Below the pieces are notes generated by a model. The model was not told the DNA's origin and searched no databases. It saw nothing but the letters and a program-made list of their open reading frames with translations. Made by a program: the position numbers and the translations under genes. This document shows positions 3,813 to 38,416 of a stretch of 64,000 nt of DNA, piece after piece. The DNA comes from Eledone cirrhosa (Eukaryota): positions 73,346,001 to 73,410,000 of the forward strand of contig OZ024740.1 in the NCBI GenBank assembly GCA_964016885.1, written 5' to 3'. Numbering within the stretch: position 1 is the stretch's first letter; the number at the start of each line of letters is the position of its first letter.

Positions 3813-6800
3813 TGTTTCTTTTATTTGCCACCAGGGCATCAAAAGTGGGACAAGAACAATGGGGGGAGTTTACAAAACAAGGCGTCCTCAATAAGGAGGA
3901 GGCAATAACAATATATAAAAATAAAATAAAATATAACAAAAAATAAAATTTATAACAAAGTCCTCAATGGAGAGGAGGCGCCTTGGGGGGTCGCACACGC
4001 CCCCGAAAAAAGTGTGCAACCCTTCTCCTCAGGAGCACAGAGAAGGGGTGCTCCCTTGGTCTTTCATCTTCCTCACCTATAGTCTGATGTAGAGTGAAGG
4101 CCCATTCACACGGGCCATTCTCGCCACTTTCACCCATCTTTCATAGAAACGGCTGGGGTGCAACACCTCTCTCTCCATCCTGATCCTTCTTCCGAAATGA
4201 TATCGGAAGAAACGGACCAGTTGTTGGCCAGAGAGAAAGGTGCCTGACCTCAGTCCTTTCAGACGCGTCCACCATACAACCTCTTTCGCCATGGCTATTA
4301 CGCACAGAAACACCGCCTCTGCTTCATCTTTGAAGGGGGGAGGCGGCTTGATCATTACAATAGACTCGGTGGTCAACCGGATCGGTCCCACCCTTGACAG
4401 CAGTTGTTCGACATAGCCCCACAGATCGGCTACGCCCGAGCAGTGTACCAATGCGTGTGCAACGGTTTCCTCGTCGCACACGCATCTGGGACAGATCTTT
4501 TTGGCGGGGTCCCTCCCCGGGCGCCCGTGTCTGTAGAGCCTTTCTCGAACGGTAAAGCTCCTCGGTAGCACTGCCAGGCCAGGGACTTCTGGAAGTTGTC
4601 CATAGGTCCCGGGCTGAATGTCCTACCGAACAGGCCGGCCAGTTCGTCCTCCTCCATGTCTAGGGCTTCTCCGAGGGCGTCGTCGCACCTGCTGCGTACC
4701 AGCCCTCTATAGAATGTTGCGGTGGAGTCTCCACTGATAACCGGATCCGCCTGTCAGAGGGCGGTGAGCGCCTGGGCACACTCAGTGTGCCAGGCGCCCA
4801 GTTTTCTCGGTCTTTGCTTGACCCAGGATTGCAGCTCGGTGAGTGAGACGAGTCTGGGAAAGGTTCGTCTCACAAACGAGGCCCACACCGGTTGTCTGGT
4901 GAGGAATACGTAGAGGTGCCGTAGCCTTAATGCGTGTTTACGCATCATTAGCCACGGCATCCCCAGCCCTCCTTTCGAAGGGTGTTGACAGCAGATGGAT
5001 CTCCTCACCATAGGAGCCCGCCTCTTCCAAAGGAATTGGAAGAGCGCGCGCTCCATCTTGGTGAGGGTTTCCCTTGGGCAGGGCACTACGGTCAGGCGGT
5101 AGTAGATGACGGACGCTATGTAGGTGTTCGCCACCTCCGCCCGACCTTTCAGGGATAGTTTGCAACTGGCCCACTTCTGGGTCAGTGCAAACACCCTGTT
5201 CGTAACCTCCGCCCAGTTTTTCTCCACCTGGAGGTCCGGTCCGAACCAGACCCCGAGCAACTTCACCGGGCCCTCCGTCCAGCGTCCGACGACGCCATCG
5301 GAGGGCATCGGTCTGCCCCTCCACGTGCCGAATTGCAAACCGATCGACTTGTCCCGGTTCAGCTTAGCCCCTGTGAACTTTTCGTACTCCTCCAGTAAGG
5401 TGCCGACCGCCTCGATTTCGGAGGCCGTCGACACCATTACTGTCACGTCATCGGCGTAGGCCGACACCGCTTTCCGCAATCCCGGTTCCAAAGGGATGCC
5501 CTGCAACAACTCCAACTTCCGCAGTAGTGGCTCGAGAGTCAACACATACAGAAGGGAGGAGAGAGGGCACCCTTGTCGGATGGACCGCGCGATTTTGAAC
5601 GGCTCCGAGAGGTAGCCGTTCACCTTGACCCTAGAGCAGATGCGGCTGCTGTGCATAGCAGTGATCCAGCCCCTGAAAACGGGTCCGAAGCCTGCCGCCG
5701 CTAGCACCGCATCCAGGTAACCATGGTCGACCCTATCGAACGCCTTAGATTGATCCAAGTTGATCAGAGCCCCACCAAAGCCGGGTTCGTTCCCAACCCT
5801 CTCTATGATGTATCGCATGAGGTGGAGGTTGTCATGGATGGACCTGGACGGGATAGCGCATGTCTGCGCATCACCCACCAGGTTGCCCACGACAAGCGCC
5901 AACCTCTTTGCTAGCACCTTGGCCAAAATCTGTAACTCTGTGTTTAGCAGAGTTATGGGCCTGAAGTTACTTATTTCGTCCCCCTTGTTCTCGTCCTTCC
6001 TCACTAGCGTGACTACGCCCTTGGTCACAGTACAGGGAATTCTCCCGTTCTGTTGCCAGTTGCAGTAGACCGCCTCGAGGAGATCGGGGAACAAGTCCGG
6101 CATAGCTAGATATAATTCGTAAGGAAGACCATCGAGACCCGGGGATTTGCGTTTGCCGCATTGGCTCAGCACGTCCTCTATCTCAGCGGCCGAAATCGGC
6201 TCCTCGCAGGACTTCGCCTCCCTGTCCGAGAGGCGCGGCAGGCCGTCGAGGTATGGACCGAAGTCCACGTTCCCAACCGGCTCCCCGCCCCTCCCGAACA
6301 GTCGGGAAAAGTGCCTTTGAAAGGCCTCACACATCTGCTTAGGCTCAAGAATCGCCCGTCCATCCAGGTCTCGCAAAGACCGGATGGTGGATTTAGTTCC
6401 ACTGTTGGCCTCTGTCACGCGGGCCCAGCTAACAGCTTTGGTCCCCTCGTTCCCTAGAGCACGTATTTTACTTCGGACAACGCAGCCTTCGTGCTTCGCG
6501 TCGAAAAACTGGCTCAAAGCCGTTCTCGACGCTAGCACTCTGGCCACGTCGCCGCTTCTAATTGCCTCTTCTACTCTATCTATTAGCTCCCTTTCCTTCC
6601 TATTCCTATCCGCAGCTAGAACCTTACTAAATTCTATCGAGACTACTCTAATCTCTCTCTTTAGAGATACCCACCACCTGCTGTTGACGATCGCTCCAGT
6701 CAACCGTTCCTTAACTAACGTACTAATCCGATTCCTGTAGGCTCTACTTGCCGGCAAGGACAAGTTGAGCTTCCAGTAACCGGGGCCCTGTCTATGAGTT

Positions 6801-7768
6801 CTGTCAAGTTTGACCATGCAGGTCACTAATTTGTGGTCTGAATAGCCAACCATGCGCATTTTTGGACAACTTAAAAAGTCCTTATCCTTAATTCTAACTA
6901 AGAACCTATCTAGGTACGACCTAGATGATCCGCTACGATTTGCCCAAGTCCAGGTTGGCGCAGTCGGAAAATCTAGTCGATATCTATCGGCCAGGTCAAA
7001 TCGACCGATTAACCCTTTGAGGCTATTACACCCCTCTCTATCGGGGCAGGCCCCTACGTAGTCCCAGCGTGCATCTAGGATACCATTCCAGTCCCCCACT
7101 AATAGCAAGGAGCGGGACGTCCCTAGAAAAGTCTCCAGACGATGGAAGAAGTCCGGCCGCATTGACCCGAAAGGGCCGTAGGCGGCTACCAACCTAAACG
7201 CTCCGCCTTTACCACTGCCAAGGTCCAGAACCACTAGTCGACCCTCCGGGTCCAAATGTACCATCTGTGTTGCGAGACCCAGATGTTTTTGCAGCAGAAC
7301 GACAACTCCACCCCCACCTCCGGGCTGACAGAGAGATGCGTTCATCTCAAAGTCATCAAAGGCGGGGGCCAGCTGTCGCACGTTGCTGATCCGGGCCTCG
7401 CAAATAACCATCACATCTATACGTTGTGACCTGAGGTCATTTAGAAGCATTGCTTGCTTCCAAGTTGAGCCCAGGCCACGCGCATTTAAACAGCCTACTC
7501 TTAGCATAGCCATGTTGGTGGTGAAGAGAAAAGGCACTTACCTCTCTGCGTCCCGGGTATCGGGCTGCACAATTTCCATTAGGGTGGGGGATGGGTTGTT
7601 GGGTGGGGTGGTGGTTTGTGGAAGTGTGGGGGCATCAGTGTGTTGTGTGGTTGGGGAGCTTGGAGTTGTGTGGGTGTTTGGGGAGGGGGTGGGATAGTTT
7701 TTTAGGAGGACGCGGTTAATGGGCCCGACGCAGGGGGGACCCACGTCCTCTTTAAAATTGTTTTTTAA
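3813..7768 (-). mobile_element. Tx1/L1-clade non-LTR retrotransposon, 5'-truncated within ORF1, with 17-bp target site duplication
   Basis: ORF2 has APE (LNARG, GDWN, SYLDR, SDHK), RT (KSPGLDG, DQSKAFDRV, RQGCPLS, YADD) and a C-terminal CPRC...H...C motif; AATAAA near the 3' end; agctagataaatagata at 3796-3812 and 7769-7785. Confidence 0.93.
4077..7513 (-). pseudogene. LINE ORF2 (APE endonuclease-reverse transcriptase-zinc motif) with one premature TGA (4754-4756) and one frameshift (~4550)
   Basis: ORF 4430-4657 is in the same frame as the 927-aa ORF, past the stop; 4077-4571 is the shifted C-terminus; all pieces are collinear with the paralogue at 35044-38416. Confidence 0.9.
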
Positions 7769-10258: not shown

Positions 10259-11135
10259 TCATTGTGTAAGGAGTGAAAGGAGAACGCTTTCAGAATGTTT
10301 GGTAAACAGTGACGAAGAGTTGTTGCAATATACAGCAGAAGCTATGGGTATAAATGCAATAGAAATGGTTGTAAAGGGAGAGTTTAACAAAAGAGGCGAA
10401 GAGAAAAAAAGGATCTTCTAGGAATGAGAATGCATGGTCAATTTGAAAGAAATACACAGGGTGTCAAGGATAAAACAACATCGTGAACATGGTTTAAGCA
10501 AGGCGATTGGAAACGTGCCACTCAAAGCCTTGTATTTGCAGCGCAAGACCAATCTACAAAGCTTCTGACACCCACTTGGTAAGTGAATGTGAGAGCCTTG
10601 CGCAAAAAGAGTACAAGCGCCGCCATGATAAAGTCTGCCTGTACCTTCATTGACGTTTGTGTCATAAATACCAATACAAAGTCATAGGGAATTGTAAAGT
10701 AATGGAGGAGGGTGAGAAAGCAACGGTATTCTGGAATTATGGTTTTTAAACTGATAGAATAATTAAGCATCACCGAGCAGATATTGTCGTATTAACAAGA
10801 AAGACAAATACTGTCAGATAATCGGGGTGGTCATACCAAATGACATGAATATTGCGAGTAAGGAGATTGTAAATATCACCAAGTACTCAGAATTGAAAGT
10901 GGAGTTGGCAGGATTATTTAGAATGCAAGAGGGTAATGTGAAAGTGATACCAGTTGTTATCGGGGCAGTAGGGTCAATCTCAATGAAACTTCAAAACTTT
11001 TAAAAGCGACTGGGAATACCATACATGTTAGGTGTCATAACAAATGGCGGCTTTGCTAGGTACTGCGCACAATATGAGGAAAGTATTATCTATCTGAGGG
11101 ACTTGTTGTGAATTGACAGATGACTAAATAACCCA
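10255..11135 (+). mobile_element. Degenerate 3' part of an R4/Dong-like non-LTR element (restriction-like endonuclease domain)
   Basis: Broken-frame translation gives HRADIVV..NKKDKYCQIIGVVIPND..KEIVNITKYSELKVEL..VKVIPVVIGAVGSI, resembling the PD-(D/E)xK RLE C-terminus. Confidence 0.7.
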
Positions 11136-11229
11136 GTGGATTATCCATCTGCACTGGGTGACAAAGCGGTAATAATACCACTTAGCTCCAATGGGGGAAA
11201 TGGTACAAGCTTCTGTGACACTGCTCTGG

Positions 11230-11467
11230 CCAGGAAACTAAGCCATCTATTTTATATGGATGACCTAAAACTATATGGTAAAGACAATGATGAGCTGGAA
11301 GGCCTTTTACGCACTGTGAAAGCATTAAATGATGACATCGGGATAGAGTTTGAGCTTGGTAAGTATACTAAGGATACTTTCAAGAAAGAGAAGTTGATAA
11401 ACTCAAATTCAGTCGAATCGGATGTTGAAACATTTACAAAAGAACTTAAGCCTATAAATACCTACGT
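11230..11467 (+). mobile_element. RT fragment of an R4/Dong-like element
   Basis: LSHLFYMDDLKLYGK...DDIGIEFELGK. Confidence 0.75.
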
Positions 11468-11667
11468 NNNNNNNNNNNNNNNNNNNNNNNNNNNNNNNNN
11501 NNNNNNNNNNNNNNNNNNNNNNNNNNNNNNNNNNNNNNNNNNNNNNNNNNNNNNNNNNNNNNNNNNNNNNNNNNNNNNNNNNNNNNNNNNNNNNNNNNNN
11601 NNNNNNNNNNNNNNNNNNNNNNNNNNNNNNNNNNNNNNNNNNNNNNNNNNNNNNNNNNNNNNNNNNN
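11468..11667. other. Assembly gap (200 N)
   Basis: Direct sequence. Confidence 1.
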
Positions 11668-11674
11668 CTCTATC

Positions 11675-12783
11675 ATAACTTTGACTTTAAAAAAGCCTTT
11701 GGCTATGTTTGGCATAAGGGTTTGTTGTAGATGATGAATGATTGACAGTAACCTCATTGAAGTAATCAAAGTACTATATGACAATTCAAACAGTGCAATT
11801 CTCCTGAATAACAACACTGGAGAATTCTTCAGAACAACAGTGGAAGTTTGACAAGGATGTCTCTTTTCTCCAGTGCTTTTCAACATCTTCCTGGAAAACA
11901 TCATGCGAGAGACTCTCCAAGACTTCCACACCTCAGTTTCCATTGGAGGATGGCCCATTTCTAACCTGTGATTTGCTGATGACACTGAACTGTTAGGAAG
12001 CAATGAAGCAGAACTCCAGGAGCTCACTTCCAGACTGAAAAAAGGATCAGGAGCATATGGAATGGAAATCAACTCAGAAAAGAGCAAGATTCTGGTTAAC
12101 AGTAATAATCATTATACAGTAAACAACATCATACTGAATGGAGGAAGACTTCAAGAAGTGGACACTTTCAAGTACCTAAGATCCACTCTGATCAAAGATG
12201 GCATATCTGAAAAGGAGATACTGACAAGTCTCGCCCTGGTTACTTCTGCCATGGTAAAGCTGAATGTCATATGGAGAGGCAACTCCATCAGTTTTCCAAC
12301 GAAGCTCAAACTGTACAAGTCTTTGGTGACTTCGATCCTTTTGCATAGGTGTGAGAGTTGGACTCTCATAGCTGACATGGAATGAAGAATCCAGTCATTT
12401 GAGCACAAGTGCTTCAGAAGAATGCTATACATCCAATACACGGAGCACAAAACAAACAGCTTTGTGAGGCACCAAGTTAACAAATATCTTGGCAGACAGG
12501 AACCACTCCTTGCGATAGTGAAAAGACGGAAGCTTGCCTGGTATAGTCATATATCTTGCCACAACTTCTTGTCCAATACCATCTTTCGTGACACAGTCAA
12601 GGGATGGCGAAGAAAAGGCAGACAAAGAAAATCCTGGTCTGACAACATCAAAGACTGAACTGGTTACAACACGGAAACCCTTCTGCGCATGATGGAGAAT
12701 AGAGACGGATGGCGTCTAGAGTAGCACTCCAACGACTGACAGCACCAGCTCCAGTAACCAGATGATGATGATGATGATGATGA
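11675..12783 (+). mobile_element. 3' fragment of an RTE-like LINE with (GAT)n tail
   Basis: DFKKAF..QGCLFSPVLFNIFLE..FADD..VDTFKYL..ESWTL..RRKGRQRKSWSDNIK with stops; ends in gatgatgat. Confidence 0.85.
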
Positions 12784-12800
12784 TATATATATATATATAT

Positions 12801-13252
12801 ACAATATATTAATAAATGGAAACTATATTTATAAAACCATATTTAGTTTATTATATATATTTCAAAGGCAACCAAGGCAAATTATGGTGCGCTTTCATCA
12901 GATAAAATACAGATTTGTTTTATAAATAAATATTGACATACCCGGAAAAAAAACAACCTTAACGGTTGGAGCTTCCTGGATAGTGGAAGCTCCAACCGTT
13001 AAGGTTGTTTTATATTCCGGGTATGTCAATATTTATTTATAAAACAAATCTGTATTTTATCTGATGAAAGCGCACCATAATTTGCCTTGGTTGCCTTTGA
13101 AATATATATAATAAACTAAATATGGTTTTATAAATATAGTTTCCATTTATTAATATATTGTGTATTTACTCCACTAACTTGTTGAGTGCTTTATATCAGT
13201 TATAAAAATGTTTAAGCTTGTTGAATCCCAACAAATTAAATATAACCTCTGC
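12801..13252 (+). mobile_element. Near-perfect ~360-bp palindromic cassette (12801-13161) plus unique tail, carrying an HHR; family also at 31767-31935 and 40712-41140
   Basis: Arms of ~175 bp around an 8-nt apex at ~12981; flanked by TA repeats. Confidence 0.85.
13056..13115 (+). ncRNA. Type I hammerhead ribozyme motif (mirror copy on minus at ~12848-12907)
   Basis: TTTAT-CTGATGA-AAGCGCACC...GGTTGCCTTT-GAAA-TATATA-TA-ATAAA. Confidence 0.75.
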
Positions 13253-27234: not shown

Positions 27235-27358
27235 GTTCATTGTTTTACGATCGTTTCAAAAGATTAAATGAACCATAACAATTCAATGTATTGACTAAGC
27301 GATAGCAGTTATGCAACTCCATATATACATCACAAGGTTCTCGTCAGAAACAATGAAC
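27235..27358 (-). ncRNA. Type I hammerhead with 11-bp stem I and expanded stem II
   Basis: Reverse complement: GTTCATTGTTT-CTGACGA-GAACC...GGTTC..TTTT-GAAAC-GATC-GTA-AAACAATGAAC. Confidence 0.75.
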
Positions 27359-27724: not shown

Positions 27725-27794
27725 ATAGGTCTCCGTAACTATGTGTTTACACTCTTTACAAGTTATCCCCTGTCAATGTTTGATATGCTTATTT

Positions 27795-27872
<78 letters not shown>

Positions 27873-28520
27873 AATCGATTTTTTATTTAATGTTAATAAA
27901 TGCTCGCATTTATTGCTTGGAATCTTTGAGCTTATTCTACAGGTGGTATGGTGCATGTTTCTGATATTCTCAGACATGGCATCTTTAATTTAATTTTGCT
28001 AGTATTTACGGCTCCTAAGTATTCTGTTAGTAGAGCTTTTTATGTTGAAAGGATTCGGCTGCTATTTCTAGCTGTCGACAACCCTATTCACGCCACTGGC
28101 TTGACGGCGGGGCGATGTGTATGTTTTAAAACCACATGTATTTTTCGTCGTTATTTCCTGATTTGCTTTTAGTGTGTAATCACAGTTAAATCTCCTCCTT
28201 TACCTATGATCCAAGAATTGACATCTGTGATTCACTGATTAATGGTGAAATATATTTCTTTAATATACAAAGGAGATTAATCATTATTGCAAAGTATCTA
28301 TATTCAGGCTCCGTAATTATGTGTGTTTACAAATTATCCCCTGTAACTGTTTGATATGTTTATTTTATATATATATATGTCAATCGATTCTTAATTTAAT
28401 GTTATTAAATGCTCAGGTTTACAGGTTTATTACTTAGAATCTTTGAGCTTATTCTACAGGTGGTATGGCGCATGTTTCTGATATTCTTAGACATGACATC
28501 TTTAATTTAATTTTGGTAAT
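27725..28520. repeat. Diverged partial tandem duplication (period ~510 nt outside the microsatellite expansion)
   Basis: ctccgtaa.tatgtgt..ttatcccctgt..gtcaatcgatt..agacatg.catctttaatttaattttg occurs twice. Confidence 0.8.
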
Positions 28521-28534
28521 ATATATATATATAT

Positions 28535-29067
28535 ATATAAAATCGACGTCTAGCAAATAGATAAAAGTTTTAAAATAAATTTTTAAAAATTCGCTGTACT
28601 TACTATATGCGCCTTTACCGCGGTTTCATGCTCCAGAATAAACGGAAAATCCAAGCGGATTTTCATTGAGAAGGGAGCAATCTTCAGAAGGCTCTTCTCC
28701 CTCGGAGAATATAAAATTCCCGAGTTCAAATCACAAACTGACGCCATACAAAACCATTCCCAAATGAGAGCGGATGATGAAAGAAATAATTCTGCTTGGT
28801 GCCGTGTGCAAAGACAAAAGGCAGGGTGGACAGGTCAATGTCCTGCCACTAGAAATAGCAGCAGTCCAAACGGCTAAAATGTTATCTCTACCTTAGGGAG
28901 AGATCAATAATAATAAAGTATGAATTCCTACGTGTAAAAAATACATATAGGGAAACAAGTATTATCCAACCGTATGCCAATGTGGTTCTATGGCGGGTTA
29001 ACAAATTAACAAGCCAGAACATATAAAATCGAGGTCTAGCAAATAAAGAAAAAGTTTTAAAATAAAT
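28535..29067 (-). mobile_element. ~486-nt non-coding unit with ~45-nt terminal redundancy and one intact HHR (retrozyme-like)
   Basis: atataaaatcga.gtctagcaaata..aaaagttttaaaataaat at 28535 and 29021. Confidence 0.7.
28611..28692 (-). ncRNA. Type I hammerhead ribozyme with intact core and branched stem II
   Basis: Reverse complement: GCCTT-CTGAAGA-tTGCTCC..(GAAAATCC gctt GGATTTTC)..GGAGCAt-GAAAC-CGCG-GTA-AAGGC. Confidence 0.85.
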
Positions 29068-29116
29068 TATTCAGTTCCTGTCCCACCCTTGCAAGCAAGA
29101 AAAAAGCGGACGTAAA

Positions 29117-29148
<32 letters not shown>

Positions 29149-29496
29149 ATCATCATCATCACTATTTTACGTCCGTTCTTCTATGCTAGCATGGGTTAGA
29201 CGGGTTGTCCTGTTGTGGGCAGTGTCCGGTTGGCTGACCTTGTCTTGCTCATACGTGAACTGATTTGGGCTTGATTTCTACAGCTGGATGCCCTTCCTAA
29301 CACCAACCTTATTTACAGTGAGTGCTGGGTACTTTTCTTCCGTGGTGCCTACATGTCCACTTTATAGTGTGGGTTGATATATATATAATATATTTAATAT
29401 ATATATATATCTGATATATATATATAACATATATATATATATATATATAAAATATAATATATATAACATATATATATATATAATATAATATATATA

Positions 29497-31688: not shown

Positions 31689-31771
<83 letters not shown>

Positions 31772-31812
31772 GATATTAAATAAATGAAAACTATATTTAT
31801 AAAACCATATTT

Positions 31813-31872
31813 ATTCTATTATATATATTTCAAGGGTACCAAAACTTTGGTACGCTCTCATCAGATAAAATA
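31813..31872 (-). ncRNA. Type I hammerhead (family of 13056)
   Basis: Reverse complement: TATTTTAT-CTGATGA-GAGC-GTACCAAA gt TTTGGTAC-CCTT-GAAA-TATATA-TA-ATAGAATA. Confidence 0.78.
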
Positions 31873-32227
31873 CAAAGTTTGTTTTATAAATATTGACATA
31901 ACCAGGTAGAACTTAACGGTTCAAGTTTTTCCTGGGTAAATATTTGTTGAATTACCAACAAATTCAATATCCCTTTTGCTTTTATATATATATATGAATA
32001 AATGTACGAGTAGAGTTTGTTTGTAAATAAATGTACAAACAAAAATATAAAATAAGTAAGATTGCTTACCAAAGTATTTTTCTCAACATGATCCTTGTAA
32101 ATTACAGTAATAGTCCAATAAGAGGGATCAGATTATAGTATCCAGGTGGAAGATCGCGGAGTAATAATATGTTTAAATGTATAGGAAAAACAAACACTAG
32201 GCGTGAAGTATGTTATGAAACGTTCGT

Positions 32228-33098: not shown

Positions 33099-33814
33099 CA
33101 TATAACACGTATTTATAATAAGCCTAAAATTGATTTCTATAAATCTACTTCAGTATTTTACTGGTACTTTATTTTATTTACCTTGGTAGGATGAAAGGCA
33201 AAGTTGCCCGTGGCAGGATTTGAACTCAGAATGTAGAGCAAGACCAAATACCGTAATGGTATTCTATCCGACGCTCTACCAATTCTGCCAATCTACCACA
33301 TTTAATGAACATATAATTAACAACGCACTGGAATGGAGATCCGTCAGTTTCGACGATAAATGTTCTAGTTGCTGGAGCAACGGAACAGTCGGCTCGTGAG
33401 ATTTATGTGCAGCTGGCTGAGTATTCCACAGACACGTGTACTCTTAAAGTAATTTTCAGGCAGAATCGGTGCGATACAAAATATGATATCGTTGACCCCC
33501 TTCTTTGAATTATATAAAAGAAATTCTAAATTTTCTCCGACAGACTTCCCCAAATCTCCCGTCTATCCGTGGTTATGGTAAATGATATTCAAGATGCCTG
33601 GACATTAAGATTATCAAGTGAACTCCTTAACCACGTGGACACAACTTACCGCACCGTAAGCAAAATCTCACATCGAGTGGAGAGAGCCACGAAGGCTCAA
33701 ATCCAAAAGGCCTTGGGGTGCGTCTGGGCACGCAAAACCCACATCACCCGAGGCAGAAAGTAGGCCACAGTAGACGTACTTTTCGCCAACTCCCAGGAAG
33801 CAAAGTCTCACTCT

Positions 33815-35011
33815 TTGGAAACCCTAAAGAGTGAGGAGATAGTCTTGGTGCCCTCCTACTGCGGGCAGAAAATTGTGAGGGTCAAAGTGACCCAGGTCCC
33901 ACCCGACGTGCCCATACCTTGGCTGGCCACGTCTGTCCTTGCTGGAATCGAGAACAAGGCGACCATGCTGCAAGTAGAAAAAATAGGGAGAGAGAACTGG
34001 TCAGGTATAGGCATGCAAATGCTTATACAAACTGACCAGGAATGTATCGACGCTATCCCCGATATCATAGACATCGAGGAAGGACTCCAACTCCCTATAA
34101 GTGTAAAAGGAAGACGGCCAAAATGTTATCTCTGTGGGTCGAAGGGTCACCTCAGGGCCTTTTGCCCGAAGAAAACAGCGAAGAAGGCCCCTCTACTTCC
34201 AATACCTGGTCCGCTGCTACCAAGAGCAGGGCAGGCAACAAACGAAGAAGCCCCTTCCACGGTGAGTAGGAGGGCAACGTCCATAGCACCCGTACCGAGG
34301 CCACAGACAACTAAAGCAGCATCATCAGTGGCGGCAACACCAATAGCTACATTTGAAGTAGCTACACCAGCAACAAAATTGCCGAAGAGGGCTCCACTAC
34401 CACCACCAACAGCCGTGGAGCACATACCTCTCTCAGACGCCACAGAATCCGACATGGAGTTTGAGGCGGGAGTGAAGTGGCAAACGGTCTGCCACAAAAA
34501 ACAAAAAACAAAAAAACCCTTAGATTCACCCTTCAAAAGCGAAGACATACAAAGAGGGGTAAAGGCAGCAAGGAAACTTGCAGCAACACCACCACCACCA
34601 CAAGCACCACGGACAAAAACAACCACACCACCACCAGCATCACCAAAAACACCAACAACGCAAACACAAGACACACACACCAAACAGCAACAAAATCACC
34701 CCTCCCCCAAAAAATTACACAGCCATAAACATGGCAAAAAAAGAACTCATATAATATATAAAGCAGCACACAGACATCACAGAAAAAAACTACTACACCC
34801 ACCAACACCAAGAACTCTCCTGACAAACATAAGCATCATCGAAATCTCAATAGAACAGTACAAACCTTTAAAACAAAAATTCCCCAACGCATTTGGAGAC
34901 TTCAGAGGGTCGGTTACCAAGAGGATATACACTGACATCCTCTTGGAAACACCCATGACCAGCGAAAGGGACGGTTCTACTGTCCCTTCACCACACGAAC
35001 AAGGTAAGTGA
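33815..35011 (+). pseudogene. LINE ORF1 (gag-like, CCHC knuckle); probably began upstream near 33570
   Basis: CYLCGSKGHLRAFC followed by a Pro/Thr/Lys-rich region, directly upstream of ORF2. Confidence 0.8.
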
Positions 35012-35043
35012 CCCTTTCTCACTTGCCCCGTTTCTCATCCAAC

Positions 35044-38000
35044 ATGGCCGTACTCAGAATAGGCAGTATAAATGCACGTGGCCTGGGGTCATCTTGGAAG
35101 CAGGGTCACCTGCTCAACGACCTCAGGTCACGAAACATAGATGTGGTGGCCATCAGTGAAACCAGAATCTCCGAAGCACAAGCCTTCGCACCGATTTTCG
35201 GCGGCTACGAAGTATACGCATCTCCCAGCCGTCCACGATCGGGGGGAGGGGTTGCCGTCCTTTTTCGGAGAGGCTTAGATCTCGCGATACGGGCCATCTT
35301 CCTAGACCCAGAAGGTAAGTCGGTGGTGCTGGACGTGACCGGCAGCGAAGGCAATGCTTTCAGGCTAGTAGCCGTCTACGCCCCAACAAGGGGCAGGACG
35401 GCCAGATTTCTTCAGACGACTAGAGACCTTTCTTGGAACGTCCCGCTCTTTAGTGTAGTGGGCGACTGGAACGGTATCTTGGATGCACGCTGGGATCGTG
35501 TGGGGCTAGTGGTTAGGGGAGGAGAGTGCAAGAGCCTCACCAACCTGCTCAGACGTTTTGAACTGTCTGACAGGTATCGACTGGATCACCCGAATGTGCC
35601 AATGTGGACATGGACAAACCGCATCGGGTCACCCAGATCGTATCTCGATAGGGTATTCTGCAGAGAACTAGATAAGTTGTCCACAATTTAAAATAGTCGA
35701 CTACACAGACCACAAATTTGTGATCTGTGAGATTGACATAGAAAGACTTCATAGACAAGGGCCTGGTTACTGGAAGCTGAACGCGTCTTTCCCGTCGCGC
35801 AAAGCCTACAGAGACCGGATTAGCGTATTAGTTAAGCGGGCGTTGACGGGAGCGATCGCCAACAACAGGTGGTGGTTCGCCCTGAAAAGGGCAATTAAAG
35901 TAGAGTCGATTAGGTTTAGCAAAGGAGTAGTGATAGAGGAAAATAGAGTAGAGGGAGAGCTAGTCAGAAAGCTAGAAGAGGCGTTTAGGACAGGCATCGT
36001 AACCGACGTGCTTGCGGCGAAATTGGCACTCGACCAATTCTTCAACGCAAAACACAAAGGCTGCGTTGTCAGAGCTAGAGCGCGTACTCTGAAACACGAG
36101 GGGACAAAAGCCGTCCAATGGGCCCGGGTGGCAGAGGCGCGACGTGGCAACAAAGCCACAATTCGGTCTTTGTGTGACAAAAATGGGTGCGTGATGCTCG
36201 AACCTGAGCGGATGTGTGAAGCTTTTCAGAAACACTTTGGACTTCAATGCATACACTTTGGACTTCAGTGCATACCTCGACGGACTGCCTCGGCTCTCGA
36301 CGACCGCAGCACAGTGTTGCGAAAAGCCAATAACAGCTGGTGAAATACGGGAAGCGATGGCTAACTGCACAAGGGGTAAATCGCCAGGTTTGGATGGTCT
36401 GCCCTACGAGCTTTATGCATTTATGCCAGATTTGTTCGGTGACCTCTTGGCAGACGTCTACTGCAACTGGCAGCAGAACGAGAGCATTCCCAGTTTTATG
36501 AGCCGGGGAGCAGTGGCGCTGCTGAGAAAAGACCCGAACAAGGGGGATGTTATCGATAATTTCAGGCCCATAACCCTGCTAAACGCAGAGTTCAAGATTT
36601 TGGCCAAGGTGTTAGCAACGAGGTTGGCGCTTGTCGTCAAGGGTCTGGTGGGAGAGCCGCAGACATGCGCCATTCCGGACAGATCCATACACGACAACCT
36701 CCACCTCATGCGATACATCATAGAGAGGGTGGTTAAGGAACCTGGAAAGGGTGGGGCCCTGATCAACTTGGCTCAATCCAAAGCATTCGATAGGGTCGAC
36801 CATCGGTACCTGGCGGCGGTCCTCGAGGCAGCCGGTTTCGGGCCCGTTTTCAGGGGTTGGATCGCAGCAATGTACAGCGACATCTGCTCAGTTGTGAGGG
36901 TGAACGGTCACCTGTCGCAGCCGTTCAGCATCATGCGCTCAGTCCGCCAGGGTTGTCCCCTCTCGTCCCTCTTGTACGTATTGGCTCTCGAGCCGTTACT
37001 GCACAAACTGGGGGCGATGAGGGGCGTCCCACGCGAACTAGGATGCGGGAAATCCGAGTCGGCTTACGCTGATGACGTCACCGTGGTGGTGTCGAGCACC
37101 AGACACGTCCAGATGCTCGGCACCGCTCTCAAGGAATACGAAGCGGTGACAAGAGCAAAGATAAACCAGGAAAAGTCGGTGGGCTTGCAGCTCGGCACCT
37201 GGAGAGGCAAGTCTATACCGTCCGATAGCGTCGTGGGGCGTTGGACGGACGGACCAGTTAAATTGCTCGGAGTCTGGTTCGGACCGGACCTCCAGATGGA
37301 GAAAAACTGGATCGAGGTGACGAGCAGGGTGGCCTCCCTCACTCAGAAATGGGCTGAGAGAAAGCTGTCCCTGAAAGGCCGGGCGGAGGTGGCGAATGCG
37401 TACATCGCATCCGTCATCTGCTACCGCCTCACCGTCGTCCCTTGCTCCAGCCCAACTCTCACCAAAATGGAGCGCTCCTCTTCCGCTTTTTGTGGAAGGG
37501 ACGCGCTCCCATAGTCAGACGATCCATCTGCTGTCAACACCCGTTGCGTGGAGGACTGGGCATGCCATGGCTGATGATACGCAAACATGCGCTGAGGCTG
37601 CGACATCTCTGGTGCTTCCTTGATGGTGAGCAGGTGTGGTCGCCGTTCGCCAGGCACGTTTTCCCATAGCTCGTCTCCTTGACGGAGGTGCAGTCCTGGG
37701 ACAGAAAAAGACCGAGGGATAGCGCTTGGAAACTGGAATGTCTCCAGGCGCTCAGTGCCCTCTCCCAGCTGGGCACCAGTATCGGTGGAACATCCACCTC
37801 GGCGTTCTATAGAGGACTAGTGGGGGGGAAGAGCGACGACATTCTCGGAGAGATCCTGGGTGTCGAAGAAGATCAGCTGTTTGCTCTCTTCAGGAGAACT
37901 TTCAGCCCGGGGCCTATGGATAACTTCCCAAAATCCCTGGCCTGGCAGTGCTACCGGGGAGCGCTGCCGGTTCGAGATAAGCTCTACAGGCACGGAAGTG

Positions 38001-38416
38001 CCGTCAGCCGAGCCTGTCCGAGATGCGCGCAGAGCGACGAAACCGTCGTGCACGCACTCGTTCAGTGCCCGAGCATTGCTGACTTGTGGAGCTATGTCGA
38101 ACAGTTGCTGTCGCGTGTGGGACTGATCCAGTTGTCGACTGAGTCCATTGTGCAGATGGTCTCGCCGTCTTCCTTCGAGGGGGAAGGGCAGGCGGTTTTC
38201 ATCTGCTTGGTGGCTATGGCGAAAGAGATTGTGTGGTGGACAAGGTTAAAAGGGTTAAAGACAGACACTTTCCTCTTCGGCGAATCCCTAATTAACTTTT
38301 TCAAGTTTCACTTGAAGAGGAAAATCAGGGTGGAGAGGCAAGTGCTGCTTTCTAGCAAGTTTGTTGAAAGGTGGGTAAATGTAGCGAGAATGGTCCGAGT
38401 GAATATACGTCTGTAG
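35044..38416 (+). pseudogene. LINE ORF2 (APE-RT-zinc motif) with multiple frameshifts and stops
   Basis: INARG, GDWN, KSPGLDG, QSKAFDRV, RQGCPLS, YADD, CPRC..H..C spread over ORFs 35008, 35720, 36216, 37442 and 37679. Confidence 0.9.

What the first reader, a model, noticed from the sequence alone, without database searches (positions are those of the whole stretch)
28535..29067. Best single retrozyme candidate: ~486-nt non-coding monomer with terminal redundancy and an intact HHR
The unit starts and ends with the same ~45 nt, has no ORF, and carries a canonical HHR on the minus strand (5-bp stem I, CUGAAGA, 6-bp stem II base with a nested 8-bp hairpin, GAAAC-CGCG-GUA). Slightly-more-than-unit length is what reverse transcription of a circular or tandem RNA would leave.
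Basis: partly seen in the sequence, partly recalled or inferred. Interest (0 to 1): 0.75.

Follow-up and report, generated by a model that had tools for sequence, protein, structure and literature searches.

The report
Penelope-copied hammerhead retrozyme, truncated copy
This is one truncated copy of a 486-base non-coding repeat that carries a predicted self-cutting RNA and sits at hundreds of TA-repeat sites in this animal genome, and the ends of its copies indicate that Penelope-type jumping genes likely pasted it there from two fixed start points on its RNA.

Summary
The repeat and the hammerhead are real; the reading of the repeat as a circle's footprint is not supported. The 486-nt unit belongs to a dispersed family (556 exact hits of a 16-nt ribozyme motif) with one 19.5-unit array. 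Its type I hammerhead shows compensatory changes across subfamilies. It has a U·U at the base of stem II and a palindromic stem III, so it is predicted to work as a dimer.

Copy ends are not circularly permuted: 148 of 169 RNA 3' ends fall at two sites 110 nt apart, mostly in (TA)n. The 5' ends scatter and are not enriched at the cut site. In 37 of 40 classifiable two-armed insertions, one arm uses each site. This is the Penelope 'tail' footprint, also seen in autonomous Penelope-like elements here. The ~50-nt 'terminal redundancy' is a chance 5' truncation in the second unit, and this copy has only one ribozyme.

Verdict: a new non-LTR retrozyme family, likely Penelope-mobilised. A circular template is plausible but not shown; no RNA data were available and no partner element was identified. 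The scan reported the same kind of element, in other families, elsewhere in this genome.

The parts
28535..29020 (-). One full 486-nt non-coding unit of the retrozyme family (RNA sense = minus strand); q = window position minus 28534
   Evidence: nearest copies 95-97% identical
29021..29070 (-). First ~50 nt of a second unit: the variable 5'-truncated end (the 'terminal redundancy')
   Evidence: 5' ends of 177 arms spread over q25-486
28611..28692 (-). Type I hammerhead: 5-bp stem I, U·U at the base of an extended stem II with nested hairpin, palindromic ACCGCGGU stem III; predicted cut 28616/28615
   Evidence: dimer fold
28519..28540 (.). (TA)n target, merging with the inner fixed 3' end (q1, RNA ...UUUUAUAU)
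   Evidence: 95 of 169 arms end at q1-5
28906..28915 (-). Outer fixed 3' end used by other copies (q372-381, RNA ...CUUUAUUAU); internal in this copy
   Evidence: 53 of 169 arms end here
28910..29020 (-). 110-nt 'tail' between the two ends; begins with a motif (AUAUGUUCUGG...CAUNGAACCA) kept in all subfamilies and the sister family

Best explanation
This is a 5'-truncated, single-ribozyme copy of a non-coding hammerhead repeat family (a non-LTR retrozyme) that was likely inserted into a (TA)n tract by the reverse transcriptase and endonuclease of a Penelope-like element acting in trans. Shown: dispersed copies in (TA)n, two fixed RNA 3' ends 110 nt apart, variable 5' ends, two-armed insertions with one arm from each end, both arms sharing subfamily markers, and read-through of the cut site. 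Inferred: multi-unit loci are transcribed; pairs of hammerheads cut via an 8-bp intermolecular stem III; the Penelope protein cuts both strands of (TA)n and starts cDNA at the two internal AU-rich sites, perhaps helped by 4-5 nt of pairing with the nicked TA end; it copies a longer-than-unit template (circle or uncut multimer) until it drops off. The two cDNAs then join head to head, or one survives, as here.
For: Ends and arms: (116 distinct insertions: 59 one-armed, 55 two-armed, 2 complex). One arm at each site in 37 of 40 classifiable two-armed insertions (p 1e-8) and 19 of 21 in the pattern-sampled subset (p 1e-4). TA-like flank at 120 of 169 3' ends. The 459-nt sister family has the same two-end rule (ends 105 nt apart; 6 of 6 two-armed copies mixed). 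An autonomous RT + GIY-YIG element here shows the same geometry in (TA)n with a ~55-60-nt tail (L158), and its hammerhead has the same CUGAAGA-U-UGC...GCA-U-GAAA stem II base. One insertion (L032) joins a retrozyme arm head to head with that element's last 77 nt at 93.5%. Arms of one insertion share common variants in 67 of 94 comparisons, against 12.6% between insertions. Frangieh 2024 (PMC11167929, parts 1-2 of 4 read): a Penelope-like protein nicks and extends both strands of AT-rich DNA from two internal RNA sites that define the tail, on uncut RNA.
Against: No autonomous element with a homologous 3' end was found: a profile of the ribozyme-to-tail region hit none of the PLE ends in 50 GIY-YIG loci (7 families), out of 10,596 candidates. 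No RNA data. Cleavage untested; Li 2026 found cleavage in only 1 of 9 predicted Xenopus dimers. The L032 chimera is a single case and could be a nested insertion in a shared TA tract. In Frangieh 2024 the start sites are not homologous to the cut DNA, unlike the pairing suggested here. 21 of 169 3' ends fall elsewhere, and loci L001-L072 were picked with queries that begin at q1.
Confidence: 0.82

Rival explanations
1. One reading: a 486-nt circular RNA closed at the GUA site is reverse transcribed from random entry points, leaving slightly-more-than-unit, circularly permuted copies.
For: Copies read through the cut site without a seam; 19 of 87 pattern-sampled arms exceed one unit. Units of one insertion share variants. 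The family consensus folds well as a circle (MFE -131 vs -104.5 +/- 6.7, 60 shuffles, z -4.0).
Against: Entry points are two fixed sites, not random. A linear multimer explains the same read-through. Only 8 private shared variants, with no A-to-G excess that would mark one RNA molecule copied repeatedly. A circle entered at the two fixed sites stays open (about 50%); random entry does not.
Confidence: 0.05
2. The copies are the severed pseudo-LTR or 3' end of an autonomous Penelope-like element, made in cis by 5' truncation, and the unit has no life of its own.
For: End geometry and hammerhead resemble those of autonomous elements in this genome; Li 2026 derives retrozymes from pLTRs.
Against: Upstream of the unit lies another unit, never coding sequence: none of 171 fetched family loci (redundant ones included) runs into a PLE frame; 7 have PLE-like coding sequence at least 300 nt away. 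Subfamilies at 72-96% identity keep the non-coding tandem form. An origin from a pLTR long ago is not excluded.
Confidence: 0.07
3. A satellite-like repeat spread by DNA-level recombination from the 19.5-unit array, or retroposed by a LINE (RTE or CR1 type) instead of a Penelope-like element.
For: The array was amplified locally (neighbouring units share variants); LINEs with AP endonuclease lie in the window.
Against: Three array-specific variants occur in 12-15 of 19 array units and 0 of 61 dispersed units, so the array is not the source; it has the same q1 end in (TA)n. Two alternative internal 3' ends with one per arm are not LINE features (own knowledge; Craig 2021 passages say the tail is not seen in non-LTR TPRT).
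Confidence: 0.06

Closest known systems
Metazoan non-LTR retrozymes (Cervera and de la Pena 2020, PMC7229834; parts 2-4 of 6 read), especially axolotl Rtz_353 / HHR_Amex2
   Same: Non-coding, GC under 50%, tandem units with a type I hammerhead, no LTR/PBS/PPT; Amex2 has the same U·U at the base of helix II and a two-pair helix III with a tetraloop, and cuts better as a dimer
   Different: Unit is 486 nt (they report ~170-400); helix II is extended by a nested hairpin; mostly dispersed 0.2-3-unit copies in (TA)n with two fixed ends and inverted arms, which the parts read do not describe; expression and circles not shown here
Penelope-like elements with C-terminal GIY-YIG (Neptune/Poseidon; Craig 2021 PMC8557442 passages; Frangieh 2024 PMC11167929)
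   Same: 5' truncation, partial tandems, inverted 5' copy, tail at one end only, microsatellite targeting, hammerhead upstream of the 3' end
   Different: No ORF; tail 110 nt rather than the 30-40 bp cited; start sites are AU-rich and match the target
Vertebrate retrozymes as non-autonomous PLE derivatives (Li, Clavereau and Pollet 2026, 10.64898/2026.07.22.740005; parts 1-3 of 5 read)
   Same: Co-occurrence with PLEs, monomers dispersed and few long arrays, unit size inside their 51-972 bp range
   Different: Their link rests on pLTR homology and co-occurrence; here it rests on insertion anatomy, and no homologous pLTR was found. By their definition (two consecutive units with complete HHRs) this copy is a monomer, not an active retrozyme

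Membership tests
Non-LTR retrozyme | Type I hammerhead in each unit | tested here: met
   core and stems intact with CGCG in 39 of 61 dispersed and 6 of 19 array units
Non-LTR retrozyme | Tandem non-coding units of a few hundred nt, no LTR or ORF | tested here: met
   dimers and a 19.5-mer; no conserved ORF
Non-LTR retrozyme | Two ribozymes flanking a monomer in this copy | tested here: not met
   one hammerhead only in 28535-29070; met by other members of the family
Non-LTR retrozyme | Self-cleavage of the transcript | not testable with these tools
   predicted dimer fold only; 5' ends not enriched at the cut site, 5 of 177, p 0.11
Non-LTR retrozyme | Expressed as linear and circular monomers | not testable with these tools
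   no RNA holder listed
Non-LTR retrozyme | Target-site duplication | tested here: inconclusive
   hidden by (TA)n: TA-like at 120 of 169 3' ends and 28 of 59 one-armed 5' ends
Non-autonomous Penelope-mobilised element | Fixed 3' ends with a tail at one end, 5' truncation, inverted 5' copy | tested here: met
Non-autonomous Penelope-mobilised element | 3' end homologous to an autonomous PLE of the same genome | tested here: inconclusive
   none in 50 GIY-YIG loci; only a shared stem II base and one chimeric insertion
Autonomous Penelope-like element | RT + GIY-YIG ORF | tested here: not met
Rfam hammerhead families | Covariance-model match | tested here: not met

The most novel reading that the evidence does not exclude
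A Penelope-type RT dimer loads on one 486-nt ribozyme-made RNA circle at two fixed AU-rich sites 110 nt apart, primes from both nicked strands of a (TA)n break by base pairing, and rolls round the circle in both arms; the genome would then record the missing circle-to-DNA step of the retrozyme life cycle, with a conserved RNA motif at the start of the tail as the parasite's loading signal.
Probability: 0.4. Interest if true: 0.7.

Novelty: new member of a known kind. Interest (0 to 1): 0.42.

Why it matters
How animal retrozymes get back into DNA is proposed but not shown in the papers read. This family gives exact predicted start sites, a target sequence, a rule (one arm per start site) and candidate enzymes in the same genome, so the step can be tested in an existing in vitro Penelope assay, circle against linear multimer. 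The copy in the window is an ordinary dead-end member.

Tried and rejected
- Circular permutation: rejected.
- Enrichment of 5' ends at the cut site: not found (5 of 177; one exact cut-site-to-TA junction genome-wide).
- Long array as master source: rejected.
- A-to-I editing scars on variants shared within an insertion: not seen; A>G made up 0 of 8 private, 7 of 38 rare and 4 of 132 common shared variants.
- Selection on single copies: none; ribozyme core and rest decay alike, 3.3% vs 3.2% in L001-L041. Conservation shows only between subfamilies.
- Autonomous partner: BLAST and nhmmer on 50 GIY-YIG loci found none. A 16-nt match to two PLE frames is on the wrong strand and was treated as chance.
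- Expression: no RNA holder listed. The three runs laid are contigs of one sample of unknown kind and only confirm the family.
- Covariation: one search used a structure shifted by one column and is void except as an off-register control. One search is the valid count, with one nested-hairpin pair (31-52) set wrongly.
- Rfam: no hammerhead hit.
- A suspected second array at C1:43.30-43.31 Mb is two separate insertions.
- Literature searches listed no paper on this end pattern in retrozymes or on cephalopod retrozymes. Supplements of Cervera 2020 and Li 2026 were not seen and may hold related families.

Full report
Coordinates. q is the window position minus 28534, so the unit 28535-29020 is q1-486 on the + strand. 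The ribozyme is on the minus strand, so low q is the RNA 3' direction. The genome (G000) has 3.0 Gb; earlier scan notes call it a cephalopod, which I did not test.

Observation. The repeat is real (90.2% over 51 columns, period 486), and so is the hammerhead at 28692-28611. It is not fully canonical: U·U replaces G-C at the base of stem II, and stem III is two pairs around CGCG. ACCGCGGU is a palindrome, and two copies co-fold into a double hammerhead with an 8-bp intermolecular stem III. A single copy's minimum-energy fold misses the core (z -1.5). Rfam has no match. Across 13 hand-picked representatives of subfamilies and sister families, 5 of 6 stem II pairs and 2 of 5 stem I pairs change on both sides, 84.9% of cells pair, and 0 of 500 shuffles reach the covariation score (relatedness inflates this control, and several rows were found with a motif from the ribozyme's 3' half). 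There is no conserved ORF.

Family. A DNA search gave 2,291 first-look candidates, of which 40 were scored. Exact motif counts are 150 (24-mer) and 556 (16-mer), with 0 for reversed controls. The 16-mer is intact in 17 of 29 full units found independently, so ribozyme-bearing segments number roughly a thousand. Dispersed full units are 3.7% from their consensus; older subfamilies at 72-88% exist. A 459-nt sister family with a homologous ribozyme has 1,905 candidates.

Ends. I tallied 116 distinct insertions from loci L001-L072, L074-L092, L097-L112 and L163-L192; the array and PLE loci were left out. There are 59 one-armed, 55 two-armed and 2 complex insertions. Of 169 arm 3' ends, 95 lie at q1-5, 53 at q372-381 and 21 elsewhere. 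In the 59 insertions picked only by a ribozyme motif the figures are 48, 28 and 11 of 87. Both sites end in U-rich-AUAU and run into (TA)n (120 of 169 flanks TA-like). The 5' ends spread over the whole unit, with 5 of 177 at the cut site (p 0.11). Two-armed insertions join two 5' ends head to head; where both outer ends are classifiable, 37 of 40 use one site each (p 1e-8; 19 of 21 in the pattern-picked set, p 1e-4). Fifteen of the 55 had at least one unclassified end and were not counted. The sister family follows the same rule (6 of 6).

This copy. It starts at the inner site in a TA tract, runs 486 nt plus about 50 nt, and abuts a different repeat at 29071. The redundancy is where this cDNA stopped, or where the neighbour cut it. 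It holds one ribozyme and cannot excise a monomer alone.

Array. C1:176443890-176453336 holds 19.5 units with the q1 end and TA on both sides. Three variants occur in 12-15 of 19 array units and in 0 of 61 dispersed units; neighbouring units share further variants, and at some of these sites the edge units keep the family base. It therefore grew or was homogenised in place. It is neither the source of the dispersed copies sampled nor proof of rolling-circle copying.

Enzyme. The genome has 10,596 GIY-YIG candidates. Fetched loci encode RT with a C-terminal GIY-YIG, most with a cysteine motif before it, which I read as Neptune-like from Craig 2021 passages; no tree was built. One family (L142, L146, L147, L152, L156, L158) ends in (TA)n at two sites about 55-60 nt apart, one per arm in L158. 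Five of these six loci gave a hammerhead with the same U·U plus UGC/GCA stem II base as our unit. L032 joins 2.4 units head to head with that family's last 77 nt; this is one case and could be a nested insertion. A profile of the ribozyme-to-tail region found no homologous PLE end in 50 loci, so the partner is unidentified. Frangieh 2024 (parts 1-2 read) showed that a Penelope-like protein cuts and extends both strands of AT-rich DNA from two internal RNA sites that bound the tail, using uncut RNA. That matches the anatomy here.

Template. Segments of one insertion share non-consensus bases at 17.3% of variable sites, against 3.7% between insertions. At 19 common variants outside the A/T run and CpGs, both arms carry the variant in 67 of 94 comparisons and same-arm units in 74 of 109, against 12.6% between insertions. 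Both arms thus come from one source type. Private shared variants are few (8) and show no editing bias, so a circle and a homogeneous linear multimer cannot be told apart. A good circular fold (z -4.0) and the survival of multi-unit copies through several subfamilies favour some regenerating step (inference). Single copies decay neutrally. No RNA run was available.

Comparison. It works like, and fits the sequence-level definition of, a metazoan non-LTR retrozyme; axolotl HHR_Amex2 has the same U·U and short helix III (Cervera 2020, parts 2-4 read). Palindromic helix III and dimer activity are known for metazoan hammerheads (Cervera 2014, PMC4209133, passages read). A Penelope link is proposed by Cervera 2020 and supported by homology in Li 2026 (parts 1-3 read). 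The end rule was not found in five searches; supplements were not seen. Earlier scan notes describe the same two-armed pattern for 310-, 422-, 467- and 520-600-nt families in this genome; none matched this family by sequence. My reading was written before I saw them; the editing test came from one of them.

Verdict. Real feature, new family of a known kind, likely Penelope-mobilised; cleavage, expression, circle and partner are untested. Interest 0.42.

Noticed in passing
window 12794-13168: Two-armed inverted insertion (96% arms) with a hammerhead in each arm (12906-12847 minus, 13056-13115 plus; palindromic UAUAUA stem III); a relative at 31749-31903 (85%) and one in L153 near 5851
   Followed up: partly
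window 27236-27357 (minus): Another long-stem hammerhead candidate with a 10-bp stem I and a CGAUCG palindrome
   Followed up: no
window 27731-28008 and 28309-28525: Diverged direct repeat (83-86%, offset about 510-580 nt) just left of the finding; possibly another tandem element
   Followed up: no
window 29071-29375: Two very abundant SINE-like pieces tail to tail around an (ATG)n/(CAT)n tract; the left one is cut at 29071 where it meets the retrozyme. RTE-type origin is recalled, not tested
   Followed up: partly
L144:5502-6420 (G000 C5 ~100.722 Mb): 459-nt sister retrozyme family, 1,905 first-look candidates, two 3' ends 105 nt apart, CGUCG loop that is not a perfect palindrome; further relatives at L092:2572-2656 and L179:2226-2311
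   Followed up: partly
G000 C1:176443890-176453336 (L073, L093): 19.5-unit array of this family with locally shared variants; 6 of 19 units keep an intact ribozyme
   Followed up: yes
L032:2859-2939: Retrozyme arm joined head to head with the last 77 nt of an autonomous Penelope-like element, TA on both outer sides
   Followed up: partly
family q~282 (window ~28816): 5' ends cluster at q269-289 (7 at q282) and q100-150, next to predicted hairpins; may be RT pause sites or junction microhomology
   Followed up: no
window 4754-7537 (minus) and 33764-38416 (plus): Two LINEs with AP endonuclease and RT, the first with a 927-aa open frame; RT fragments at 11124-12385
   Followed up: no
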